A stretch of DNA of 64,000 nt from a virus: the UHGV virus genome UHGV-0091736, one strand, 5' to 3'. Shown piece after piece: positions 22,375 through 23,685 of this stretch. Position 1 is the stretch's first letter, and each line of letters begins with the position of its first letter. The position numbers and the translations under genes are program-made. The notes under the pieces were generated by a model. The model ran no database searches. It saw only the letters and a list, made by a program, of their open reading frames with translations, and was not told where the DNA came from.

Positions 22375-23685
22375 TCACATTTCAAAAGAGATTCCACGAC
22401 CCGCTTCATCGGCAAACCGAACTGTACGGGTTTGAGGCTCTAATACTTCAGGGTTGTTGGCAACAAATCGATCAGCGAGGATATCTCCCAAATCTTCTAC
22501 CCCATCTTCTACCATATCTTCATCAGTCCACACAGTCCTAACCGGTACATCAAAGTCACCAGCAGCAAAACCCTGACCGGAGAATTGACGTGCGCCGACA
22601 GTAAAGCCATTTGGTCGACCACGAGAAGGTCTAGCCCTCCATCTCTCCATAGAATCACTTGTAATACCAAGATCTTCAAAAGAAGCTCTAGGAGGGGAGC
22701 TTGCACTTCTCGCCTCTTGTGATCGGCTCATTGCAGGGGCTACAAGAACCCCTTCAATTGCGTTGTGTTGGTTAGGTTCATCTTCACGTCCAAGCAGATC
22801 TCCACTTGTATTGGTTATTAGATCTGTCAATCCTTCAGACCAATATGCACGAATCTGACTGGAGCCATGAATGTTTGACATAACCTGAATCTCTTCATAA
22901 GATATACCAAAGAATCGACTCATGTCTCGGTTAACACAATATTGAGCACTTGTTGTATCCTCAACAAGAGCAACCTGACCCCATTCATTGATCAGATGAC
23001 TGACCGGTTGAGGTGTAGGAAGATATCGAGATTGTGCCATATATTGATATGCAACAGATGGAGCGGAGAATCTTAATACCTGTGAATTAGGCCACTTCTT
23101 ATGAACATACTTGATTTCACGACCAGAAACAACTACTGGACAGGGAGAGGTCATAGCCAAATATCCATGAGGGGTCATGAATAGGTTGTCAAGAGTAATC
23201 GCACCACGGCACATCATAGGAAAGCTATCCAACACCTCTTCAACAGAAGTAGGATAGTTAAACATGAATTGGATACGAACCCCACTCCACTGGAATTCAA
23301 TAATATCAGTGAAAGTCAACGGAGAACCTTCAGCGTATGGTCCATTTGTGGCCTCAGCAAGAAGGGATGAATATTCAATATCTTGTGACTCAAGCCACTC
23401 CTTAACGTTGCTTTCAACCTCTCTTCCAAGATCTTGCCACTGGTCATGGCGGATATAAGTATATTCAGTTCTTGGTGTCTGTCCTCTGACAATAAAAATA
23501 TCAATATCATGCGGAGCTGTATTGTTAAGAACAGCATCACGAACAGCCCCACCAGTGATGATAGGACAGATACCGTCTGGAATCAAGTTGTTGTTAATCA
23601 ACTGTTCAATGAAGTGACGACCAACAGTGATATCAGGTTGTTGAGCAACCTTATCTTCAATTCGGTTAATCGGGATAACAATCAT
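22375..23685 (-). CDS. Pol-beta-type nucleotidyltransferase (CCA-adding enzyme / poly(A) polymerase-like head)
   Basis: IITGGAVRDAVL ... DIDIF motif; ATG 2 nt after the exonuclease stop. Confidence 0.5.
   Translation of the reverse strand: MIVIPINRIEDKVAQQPDITVGRHFIEQLINNNLIPDGICPIITGGAVRDAVLNNTAPHDIDIFIVRGQTPRTEYTYIRHDQWQDLGREVESNVKEWLESQDIEYSSLLAEATNGPYAEGSPLTFTDIIEFQWSGVRIQFMFNYPTSVEEVLDSFPMMCRGAITLDNLFMTPHGYLAMTSPCPVVVSGREIKYVHKKWPNSQVLRFSAPSVAYQYMAQSRYLPTPQPVSHLINEWGQVALVEDTTSAQYCVNRDMSRFFGISYEEIQVMSNIHGSSQIRAYWSEGLTDLITNTSGDLLGREDEPNQHNAIEGVLVAPAMSRSQEARSASSPPRASFEDLGITSDSMERWRARPSRGRPNGFTVGARQFSGQGFAAGDFDVPVRTVWTDEDMVEDGVEDLGDILADRFVANNPEVLEPQTRTVRFADEAGRGISFEM

What the first reader, a model, noticed from the sequence alone, without database searches (positions are those of the whole stretch)
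22375..23685. CCA-adding-enzyme-like nucleotidyltransferase in a phage that also encodes a tRNA
The GGAVRD ... DIDIF head is the Pol-beta-type signature of tRNA nucleotidyltransferases and poly(A) polymerases, here with a long Arg/Ser-rich and acidic tail. It could repair tRNA 3-prime ends, tail RNAs, or make a nucleotide signal. The phage tRNA at 40340-40416 encodes its own CCA, so maturation of that tRNA alone does not explain it.
Basis: inference. Interest (0 to 1): 0.55.

Follow-up and report, generated by a model that had tools for sequence, protein, structure and literature searches.

The report
Gad2-like phage nucleotidyltransferase, disordered tail
This gene is the local copy of phiEco32 gp73, a small and apparently active nucleotide-adding enzyme found in all Kuravirus-like E. 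coli phages; it resembles only the catalytic head of CCA-adding enzymes, is distantly related to the anti-Gabija protein Gad2, cannot by itself hold a tRNA, and is already annotated although its function has never been tested.

Summary
Window 22375-23685 (-) encodes a 436-aa protein with GGAVRD (aa 45-50), DIDIF (aa 60-64) and a low-complexity tail. The phage tRNA-Arg does encode its CCA.

The window is a phiEco32-like Kuravirus. The gene is the ortholog of phiEco32 gp73, which public records already annotate as a nucleotidyltransferase (phrog_12715, E 1e-222).

G45, G46, D60, D62 and D/E127 are conserved down to 21% identity, so the enzyme is probably active.

The nearest family with a phenotype is Gad2, the anti-Gabija protein (hhalign 84%, E 7e-6; precomputed Pfam PF26128 hit, weak).

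The gene always sits between the DNA polymerase exonuclease subunit and dCTP deaminase. The sister family Grimontviridae has the same module without it, so it is a lineage-specific addition, not a replisome essential.

The best reading is a Gad2-superfamily accessory transferase for counter-defence or host takeover, and that role is inferred. It is not a bona fide CCA-adding enzyme. It is an ordinary new member of a known, uncharacterised family.

The parts
22375..23685 (-). Complete CDS, 436 aa plus stop. Ortholog of phiEco32 gp73 'nucleotidyltransferase'.
   Evidence: phrog_12715 matches at E 1e-222. The protein is 83% identical to phiEco32 gp73.
22819..23685 (-). Predicted folded domain, aa 1-289. 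It comprises a Pol-beta nucleotidyltransferase core (aa ~38-145) plus helices.
23536..23553 (-). Motif A, first half: G45 G46 A V R49 D50 (the NTP-binding turn).
   Evidence: G45, G46, R49 and D50 are invariant in 50 homologs down to 21% identity. Coordinates checked.
23494..23508 (-). Motif A, second half: D60-I-D62-I-F64 (the two metal-binding aspartates).
   Evidence: D60, D62 and F64 are invariant. Coordinates checked.
23305..23307 (-). D127, the probable third catalytic carboxylate, on strand 124-133.
   Evidence: This position is Asp in 16 and Glu in 10 of 26 divergent representatives, and never anything else. The strand assignment comes from the AF2 model. Its catalytic role is inferred.
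23209..23223 (-). F155-P156-M-M-C159 motif. It aligns with the FDFT(V)C motif of Gad2.
   Evidence: hhalign A7 against A6. P156 is invariant and F/M155 conserved.
23089..23109 (-). Y193-V-H-K196-K197-W-P199 basic helix motif, preceded by R189 and E/D190.
   Evidence: Y193 and K197 are invariant; R189 is present in 20 of 26; position 190 is always acidic. P183, R189 and Y193 align with the invariant Gad2 residues P145, R151 and Y155.
22378..22818 (-). Disordered, fast-evolving C-terminal tail, aa 290-436. It is rich in Arg/Ser/Ala/Gly, has acidic stretches, and ends in an aromatic-containing ...GRGISFEM.
   Evidence: pLDDT is below 50. Close relatives are 71% identical here against 88% in the N-terminal domain, and the tail is absent or unalignable in distant homologs. 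dN/dS is 0.27-0.35, so it is still constrained.
23687..24244 (-). Upstream neighbour: DNA polymerase 3'-5' exonuclease subunit. Its stop codon lies one base before the NTase ATG.
   Evidence: Pfam DNA_pol_A_exo1 at E 2e-8 and phrog_38876/403.
21799..22353 (-). Downstream neighbour: dCTP deaminase.
   Evidence: Pfam DCD at E 1e-31 and phrog_1663.
23698..23727 (-). Sigma-70-like promoter match (TTGACC-18-TATATT) just upstream of the NTase start, inside the end of the exonuclease gene.
   Evidence: This is a consensus match only; the number of such sites in the region is not above the shuffled expectation. Phage SU7 has an annotated promoter at the equivalent place.
40340..40416 (-). Phage tRNA-Arg(TCT) with genome-encoded CCA.

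Best explanation
The gene encodes the Gordonclarkvirinae-type phage nucleotidyltransferase, the phiEco32 gp73 family (phrog_12715). It is a stand-alone, catalytically competent Pol-beta-fold head of the class II (CCA-adding enzyme / poly(A) polymerase) lineage, about 290 aa, followed by an intrinsically disordered tail of about 145 aa.

Shown here:
- the fold;
- the intact GG...DxD...D/E metal-binding and NTP-binding residues across the whole family;
- the absence of any tRNA-binding body or tail domain;
- a remote but specific relationship to the phage Gad2 / phrog_1614 nucleotidyltransferase superfamily;
- a fixed position between the polymerase exonuclease subunit and dCTP deaminase in every carrier;
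- the absence of the gene from the otherwise identical module of the sister family Grimontviridae.

Inferred: early in infection the enzyme uses Mg2+ and an NTP or dNTP to transfer nucleotides, without a template, onto a 3'-OH of a nucleic-acid end or onto another hydroxyl acceptor. The disordered tail probably supplies partner or substrate recruitment. The biological role is most likely an accessory counter-defence or host-takeover function of the kind shown genetically for Gad2 against Gabija. It is unlikely to be tRNA CCA maintenance or an essential replisome activity.
For: Identity and spread:
- The DNA is about 89% identical to phiEco32-group phages, and public records annotate the gene as a nucleotidyltransferase.
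- phrog_12715 matches at E 1e-222.
- 98 E. coli and Shigella phage records carry a homolog.

Fold:
- The AF2 models are confident for aa 1-289.

Active site:
- G45, G46, R49, D50, D60, D62, Q139, Y193 and K197 are invariant, and position 127 is always Asp or Glu, in sequences down to 21% identity.
- dN/dS is 0.07-0.22 in the folded domain.

Link to Gad2:
- The precomputed Pfam hit is PF26128 'Gad2', weak for the close homolog P0001 and strong for the distant relative P0049.
- hhalign of the clade profile against seven Gad2 sequences gives 84% probability and E 7e-6 over aa 33-199, including the shared F..C and P...R...Y motifs.
- Both families hit the hub family phrog_1614, the window protein at 1e-6 and Gad2 at 9e-6.
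- Gad2 is needed for phage SPbetaL7 to resist Gabija and is predicted to be a nucleotidyltransferase.
- Its mechanism is still unknown.

Accessory rather than essential:
- GAP52, Privateer and SE131 have helicase-exo-dCTP deaminase with no NTase between them.

Biology of the carriers:
- The gene lies in the early region of SU10, where one peptide of the protein was detected.
- Gordonclarkvirinae are unusually resistant to the tested restriction and defence systems, with no known mechanism.
Against: - No activity, substrate or phenotype has ever been measured for this family.
- The Gad2 relationship is remote. The two belong to different PHROG families (12715 versus 18122/4400), the hhalign probability is only 84%, and the precomputed Pfam hit is 'weak'.
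- The structured C-terminal half of Gad2 is absent here.
- Gad2 has FDFT where this family has an invariant Pro, and it lacks the R49-D50 of motif A.
- Strict conservation and fixed synteny across more than eight lineages is unusual for anti-defence genes, which tend to be variable and sit in hotspots.
- Gabija was not among the systems tested on these phages (inference: one search names only RM systems and Fun/Z, and no library paper holds both 'Gordonclarkvirinae' and 'Gabija').
- The structural neighbours are RNA 3'-end transferases, so an RNA-tailing role is equally compatible with the fold.
Confidence: 0.45

Rival explanations
1. RNA 3'-tailing enzyme, poly(A)-polymerase-like. It would add untemplated tails to host or phage RNAs early in infection. 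The effect would be to mark host transcripts or tRNAs for 3'-exonucleolytic decay (host shut-off and nucleotide recycling) or to modulate phage RNA stability.
Against: PAP I and the CCA enzymes score almost equally, so the fold does not discriminate between them. The neck, body and C-terminal RNA-binding regions of PAP I are absent, and hhalign to PcnB gives only 4.5% probability. No PolyA_pol_RNAbd domain or other RNA-binding domain was detected.
Confidence: 0.2
2. DNA-directed function tied to replication. The enzyme would either take part in a covalent DNA modification pathway together with the neighbouring dCTP deaminase, as the BASEL authors suggested, or act as a terminal transferase on phage DNA ends or replication intermediates. 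Either would protect the linear, terminally repeated genome from restriction or from end-sensing nucleases.
Against: No Pol-beta-fold NTase is known to make a base modification. The phages also encode ThyX, which gives an ordinary dCTP to dUMP to dTMP route. The termini of phiEco32 were mapped by restriction profiling, so at least some enzymes cut its DNA. Grimontviridae run the same replication module without the NTase. DNA polymerases and TdT are weaker structural matches than the RNA enzymes. No fingers, thumb or 8-kDa domains are present.
Confidence: 0.12
3. tRNA 3'-end repair enzyme. It would be a CCA-adding or partial-CCA-adding activity that restores tRNA acceptor ends damaged by host defences or toxins during infection.
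For: The head domain and motif A are of the class II CCA type. [quoted passage not shown] Phages, especially jumbo phages, are known to carry genuine CCA-adding enzymes for RNA repair.
Against: The body and tail domains that measure and hold the tRNA are missing. The neck motifs B (RRD) and D were not found, and hhalign to E. coli Cca covers only 23 columns. Scores fall below the Pfam and NCBIfam cutoffs. phiEco32 has no annotated RNA ligase or polynucleotide kinase partner. Host tRNAs and the phage tRNA encode their CCA, and the host already has Cca.
Confidence: 0.1
4. Nucleotide-signal synthase or signal mimic. The enzyme would make a cyclic or linear oligonucleotide from NTPs alone, in the manner of CD-NTase or OAS, to interfere with host signalling.
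Against: They rank well below the CCA/PAP enzymes. No PADLOC model of CBASS or other cyclases matches the window protein or its clade. The C-terminal helical lobe of CD-NTases is absent.
Confidence: 0.05
5. Catalytically dead scaffold. The head would be retained only as a binding module, and the tail would do the work.
For: The tail is under purifying selection and carries short conserved aromatic motifs.
Against: All metal-binding and NTP-binding residues are invariant over very deep divergence. That pattern is not expected for a pseudo-enzyme. Many homologs have almost no tail (274-290 aa).
Confidence: 0.03

Closest known systems
phiEco32 gp73 / SU10 gp74 family (phrog_12715), annotated 'nucleotidyltransferase' in Gordonclarkvirinae genomes
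   Same: The match is full length (E 1e-222). Protein identity is 74-88% within Kuravirus. The position between the exonuclease subunit and dCTP deaminase is the same, and so are the start and the motifs.
   Different: Nothing substantive differs. The tail differs by small indels and ends ...SFEM instead of ...SFDIETNN. This allele comes with a different dCTP deaminase allele and extra HNH genes nearby.
Gad2 (Gabija anti-defence 2; Pfam PF26128; phrog_18122/4400) of SPbeta-like Bacillus phages
   Same: Both are phage-specific Pol-beta NTase domains with GG...DxD, a conserved Gln strand, the F..(T/M)(V/M)C motif and the P...R...Y helix motif. hhalign gives 84% probability and E 7e-6 over about 130 columns. 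Both also hit phrog_1614. Pfam's own model hits homologs of the window protein.
   Different: They belong to different PHROG families, and identity is about 20% in the aligned core. Gad2 has a structured C-terminal half of about 230 aa where this protein has a disordered tail. Gad2 lacks the R-D of GGAVRD and has Asp where this family has the invariant P156. Gad2 sits in a variable anti-defence locus, whereas this gene is fixed in a replication module. The Gad2 mechanism is unknown.
Short stand-alone phage 'poly A polymerase head domain' nucleotidyltransferases (phrog_1614), for example in Pseudomonas phage LKD16, Aeromonas phiAS7, Pantoea LIMEzero and Caulobacter Cd1
   Same: Foldseek gives E 1e-5 to 1e-9 against their BFVD models. 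The profile search finds 520 such proteins at E below 1e-3. In at least one of them (Emajogi gp22) the gene also sits beside the primase/helicase.
   Different: They are 170-230 aa with no tail and share 12-17% identity. None has a known function.
Class II tRNA CCA-adding enzymes and bacterial poly(A) polymerase I (Pfam PF01743 plus PF12627)
   Different: Only about 150 residues superpose. The neck motifs and the body and tail domains are absent. Scores are below the family thresholds.

Membership tests
phiEco32 gp73-type phage nucleotidyltransferase (phrog_12715) | Full-length match to the family profile | tested here: met
   E 1.1e-222 and 741 bits, covering residues 1-436 against profile positions 1-453 of 457.
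phiEco32 gp73-type phage nucleotidyltransferase (phrog_12715) | Position between the DNA polymerase exonuclease subunit and dCTP deaminase, downstream of primase/helicase | tested here: met
   Seen in the window, phiEco32, ECBP2, Bas89 and SU7, and the metagenomic loci L007, L009, L012, L016 and L017.
Pol-beta-fold nucleotidyltransferase superfamily | G[GS] turn, [DE]x[DE] on the next strand, and a third carboxylate on a later strand | tested here: met
   G45 and G46, D60-x-D62, and D/E127 on strand 124-133 are conserved in all 26 divergent representatives.
Class II CCA-adding enzyme / tRNA nucleotidyltransferase | Head domain with motif A (GGxVRD...DxD) | tested here: met
   GGAVRD and DIDIF are present. 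The profile aligns with motif A of PDB CCA enzymes.
Class II CCA-adding enzyme / tRNA nucleotidyltransferase | Score above the curated family thresholds (Pfam PF01743; NCBIfam CCA and PcnB models) | tested here: not met
   PolyA_pol scores 18 bits against a cutoff of 23 and covers only profile positions 3-50 of 126. No NCBIfam CCA or PcnB hit at E up to 1.
Class II CCA-adding enzyme / tRNA nucleotidyltransferase | Neck motifs B (RRD, ribose recognition) and D (EDxxR, base templating) | tested here: not met
   hhalign to E. coli Cca aligns only 23 columns of motif A. At the place where Gad2 has FDFT, this family has (R/S/T)-F-P-x-x-C. The equivalence of that site to the CCA-enzyme motif RRDFT rests on my own knowledge, since no residue-level structural superposition was available.
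Class II CCA-adding enzyme / tRNA nucleotidyltransferase | Alpha-helical body and tail domains that bind the tRNA acceptor/T arm | tested here: not met
Class II CCA-adding enzyme / tRNA nucleotidyltransferase | CCA addition to tRNA 3' ends | not testable with these tools
   Requires biochemistry.
Gad2 (PF26128) | Match to the Gad2 NTase-domain profile | tested here: inconclusive
   The precomputed PF26128 hit is listed for most close homologs and marked 'weak' for P0001. hhalign against seven Gad2 sequences gives 84% probability and E 7e-6. The local Pfam copy lacks PF26128, so the window protein itself could not be scored.
Gad2 (PF26128) | Gad2 C-terminal domain (about aa 165-400) | tested here: not met
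   hhalign covers only Gad2 residues 22-161. The window tail is disordered and unrelated.
Gad2 (PF26128) | Inhibition of Gabija defence | not testable with these tools
   Genetic evidence exists only for the SPbetaL7 and Brevibacillus proteins. No report of Gabija tested on Gordonclarkvirinae was found: no library paper holds both terms, and the BASEL passage names only RM systems and Fun/Z.
cGAS/DncV-like nucleotidyltransferases (CD-NTases) | Match to CD-NTase profiles and the two-lobed fold | tested here: not met
Family X DNA polymerases / TdT | Palm plus fingers, thumb and 8-kDa domains | tested here: not met

The most novel reading that the evidence does not exclude
The enzyme is a replisome-tethered, template-independent transferase. 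Its acidic tail, with an aromatic residue near the C-terminus, would dock on the phage polymerase or helicase. The enzyme would then modify phage DNA 3' ends or replication intermediates, or produce a nucleotide that silences end-sensing or nucleotide-sensing nucleases. That would explain the unexplained, very broad resistance of Gordonclarkvirinae to restriction and defence systems, and it would reveal how the Gad2 superfamily works.
Probability: 0.1. Interest if true: 0.7.

Novelty: new member of a known kind. Interest (0 to 1): 0.3.

Why it matters
As it stands, this is one more ortholog of an annotated but uncharacterised phage gene. It deserves some attention for three reasons. First, it is fixed in every member of a common E. 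coli phage group of therapeutic interest, a group that is strikingly resistant to restriction and other defences with no known mechanism. Second, it belongs to a large phage-specific nucleotidyltransferase superfamily, with more than 500 clusters. Only one member of that superfamily, Gad2, has a phenotype, and none has a known reaction. Third, BASEL isolates that infect E. coli K-12 with restored O16-type O-antigen carry the gene (Bas86-93), so a deletion or active-site mutant is now straightforward to test. Working out its substrate would probably define the chemistry of the whole Gad2-like superfamily.

Tried and rejected
1. Could it be the missing polymerase subunit, given that it sits next to a stand-alone exonuclease subunit? 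Rejected. phiEco32-type genomes carry a separate family A polymerase catalytic subunit (gp53), and Grimontviridae have the same exonuclease subunit without the NTase.

2. The Pfam zf-CCCH_11 hit at aa 220-253 (E 0.014, 16 bits against a cutoff of 27) is chance. There is no Cys/His pattern, and the region is helical in the model.

3. Sequence search of the single protein against PDB found nothing. The profile found only motif A of CCA enzymes.

4. NCBIfam and PADLOC scans gave no meaningful hit.

5. The profile search with the search for homologous proteins returned only 8 proteins and missed most close homologs, a word-index limitation. The exhaustive representative search was needed.

6. The IMG/VR scan returned only 5 loci, 2 of them new.

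7. The afdb50 fold library was unavailable.

8. A BLAST of the tail against all window ORFs found no internal paralog or shared tail.

9. The RlaP / RNA-ligase-associated NTase idea was not pursued. phiEco32 has no annotated RNA ligase or kinase, and GAP52, which does have RnlB, lacks the NTase.

10. The promoter and terminator scan is not above chance in this region.

11. The whole-window Rfam scan at gathering threshold missed the tRNA because of its filters. The local scan found it at 60 bits.
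Full report
**What is at the coordinates.** The window is a phiEco32-like podophage of E. coli (Gordonclarkvirinae, Kuravirus). The segment 22000-24300 is about 89% identical at the DNA level to some 70 such genomes. The minus-strand ORF 22375-23685 encodes 436 aa. Its ATG lies one base after the stop codon of the upstream gene. GGAVRD is aa 45-50 and DIDIF is aa 60-64. The last third is rich in Arg, Ser, Ala and Gly with acidic runs. The tRNA-Arg(TCT) at 40340-40416 (-) is real: ARAGORN finds it and the Rfam tRNA model scores 60 bits. Its discriminator base G is followed by a genome-encoded CCA.

**It is a known, annotated gene.** The protein matches PHROG family 12715 ('nucleotidyltransferase') over its full length at E 1e-222. 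It is the ortholog of phiEco32 gp73 and SU10 gp74. [quoted passage not shown] Ninety-eight phage records carry a homolog, and all are E. coli or Shigella Gordonclarkvirinae. In SU10 the gene lies in the early region, and one peptide of the protein was seen by mass spectrometry.

**Anatomy.**
- An AlphaFold model of the first 220 aa is confident (pLDDT 84, pTM 0.81).
- The full-length model, built on 50 sequences, shows a folded domain at aa 1-289, mostly above pLDDT 90, and a disordered region at aa 290-436 below pLDDT 50.
- Across 26 representatives that share only 21-34% identity with the window protein, G45, G46, R49, D50, D60, D62, F64, Y117, I128, Q139, P156, Y193 and K197 are invariant.
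- Position 127, on the strand that follows, is always Asp or Glu, and position 190 is always acidic.
- This is the complete Pol-beta nucleotidyltransferase signature (GG turn, DxD, third carboxylate). Its preservation over that depth, together with dN/dS of 0.07-0.22, argues for an active enzyme.
- The tail evolves faster: 71% identity against 88% among close relatives. In distant homologs it is unalignable or nearly absent, and some of those proteins are only 274-290 aa long.
- The tail is still under purifying selection (dN/dS 0.27-0.35), and many versions end in a short aromatic-containing motif.

**How close is it to CCA-adding enzymes?**
- By sequence, Pfam PolyA_pol scores 18 bits against a gathering score of 23 and covers only the first 50 of its 126 positions. 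No RNA-binding domain is found.
- No NCBIfam CCA or PcnB model matches.
- hhalign of the family profile against E. coli Cca aligns only the 23 columns of motif A. Against PcnB it gives 4.5% probability.
- The protein therefore shares the catalytic head with CCA-adding enzymes. It lacks the neck motifs that select nucleotides and the body and tail domains that hold the tRNA. It fails the membership test for a CCA-adding enzyme, although it may still work like a template-independent 3'-end transferase.

**The wider family and the Gad2 link.**
- An exhaustive profile search of 1.84 billion representatives found 520 proteins at E below 1e-3. About 28 clusters match the whole domain; these form the gp73 clade. 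The rest is a large cloud of proteins of 170-400 aa matching the core.
- Foldseek against viral models finds the same cloud: short 'poly A polymerase head' proteins of many podophages.
- The precomputed Pfam annotation of most close homologs is PF26128, which the context tool names 'Gad2'. It is weak for the Kuravirus protein P0001 and strong for the distant relative P0049. The local Pfam copy lacks this model.
- I therefore took seven Gad2 sequences from the supplementary table of Yirmiya et al. and compared profiles. hhalign gave 84% probability and E 7e-6 over aa 33-199. It aligned the GG...DxD motif, the conserved Gln strand, F155..C159 with the Gad2 FDFT(V)C motif, and P183/R189/Y193 with the invariant Gad2 residues P145/R151/Y155.
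- In PHROGs the two proteins have their own families (12715, and 18122/4400), but both hit the hub family 1614 at about 1e-6.
- The relationship is real but remote. They belong to the same phage-specific superfamily and are not orthologs.
- Gad2 is required for SPbetaL7 to escape Gabija, is toxic when expressed, and is predicted to be a nucleotidyltransferase. A 2026 review still lists its mechanism as unknown.

**Genomic context.**
- In every carrier examined the order is primase/helicase, DNA polymerase 3'-5' exonuclease subunit, NTase, dCTP deaminase, with abutting or overlapping start and stop codons.
- The carriers are phiEco32, ECBP2, SU7 and Bas89, four metagenomic lineages whose NTases share only 25-38% identity with the window protein, and P0001.
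- I first considered that the NTase might be the polymerase partner of the exonuclease subunit. These phages carry a separate family A polymerase (phiEco32 gp53), which rules that out.
- The decisive comparison is with the sister family Grimontviridae (GAP52, Privateer, SE131). They have the same helicase-exonuclease-dCTP deaminase module with nothing, or a 37-codon ORF, where the NTase would be.
- The gene is therefore a lineage-specific insertion into a replication module that works without it. It is not a core replisome component.

**What the literature proposes.** Humolli et al. found Gordonclarkvirinae 'remarkably resistant' to restriction-modification systems and to the other defences they tested. 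They noted the dCTP deaminase and nucleotidyltransferase pair and suggested a covalent DNA modification. I rate this low for four reasons. The phages also encode ThyX, which makes dCTP deaminase part of an ordinary dTTP supply route. phiEco32 termini were mapped by restriction profiling. No Pol-beta-fold NTase is known to modify bases. Grimontviridae have the deaminase without the NTase.

**Best explanation and rivals.**
- I commit to the following. This is an active, minimal class-II-type nucleotidyltransferase of the Gad2-like phage superfamily, carrying a disordered recruitment tail and expressed early. It most likely serves an accessory counter-defence or host-takeover role by untemplated nucleotide transfer (confidence 0.45).
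- The fold, the residues, the domain losses, the homology and the synteny are shown here. The reaction and the role are inferred.
- The main rival is a poly(A)-polymerase-like RNA-tailing function (0.2). The structural neighbours fit it equally well.
- A DNA-end or DNA-modification function (0.12) and true tRNA CCA repair (0.1) follow.
- Nucleotide signalling (0.05) and a dead scaffold (0.03) are unlikely.

**Verdict.** The gene is an ordinary new member of an already annotated, functionally uncharacterised phage family. Its interest lies only in the open question of what the Gad2-like nucleotidyltransferases do, and in how easily that can now be tested in BASEL phages.

Noticed in passing
window 24238-26648 (-), especially 24542-25271: In this phage the primase/helicase gene is interrupted. 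The N-terminal part is 25083-26648 and the C-terminal part is 24238-24495, with an HNH endonuclease ORF (24671-25006) between them. A sub-threshold Rfam group I intron match (RF00028, 37.3 bits against a gathering score of 50, E 1.2e-7) spans 24542-25271. phiEco32 gp75 is uninterrupted. This is probably a mobile group I intron carrying a homing endonuclease.
   Followed up: partly
window 21306-22353 (-): The dCTP deaminase here is 100% identical in protein to that of phages O18-011, Bas89 and ES17, but only 58% identical to the phiEco32/SU10 allele. It is followed by an overlapping HNH endonuclease ORF (21306-21830). Kuravirus therefore carries two very different deaminase alleles, possibly exchanged by homing-endonuclease-driven recombination.
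   Followed up: partly
L020 (GAP52), L021 (Privateer), L022 (SE131): Grimontviridae phages carry the same primase/helicase, exonuclease subunit and dCTP deaminase module with no nucleotidyltransferase. GAP52 and SE131 have a 37-codon ORF in its place. GAP52 has an RNA ligase 2 gene nearby.
   Followed up: yes
window 40340-40416: The whole-window Rfam scan at gathering threshold reported no family at all. A local scan then found the tRNA at 60 bits, well above its threshold of 29. The large-window speed filters lost a genuine tRNA.
   Followed up: yes
window 24238-24495 (-), C-terminus: The helicase ends in an acidic tail with a terminal aromatic residue (...[29 protein letters not shown]). This recalls the C-terminal docking tails of T7 gp4 and gp2.5. 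The NTase tail is also acidic with a near-terminal Phe.
   Followed up: no
window 20152-20763 (-): A Dps/ferritin-like protein (Pfam Ferritin, E 3e-7) is conserved in the same module in all relatives, together with thioredoxin, ThyX and, in some, NrdD. A phage-encoded Dps is unusual, and its role in this module is unexplained.
   Followed up: no
phiEco32 record, 52-60 kb (L001, L006): Upstream of the replication module lies a cluster of ATP-grasp/RimK-like, amidoligase, glutamine amidotransferase, COOH-NH2 ligase and gamma-glutamyl cyclotransferase genes. Such a cluster could make a peptide or a metabolite modification. It was not examined in the window.
   Followed up: no
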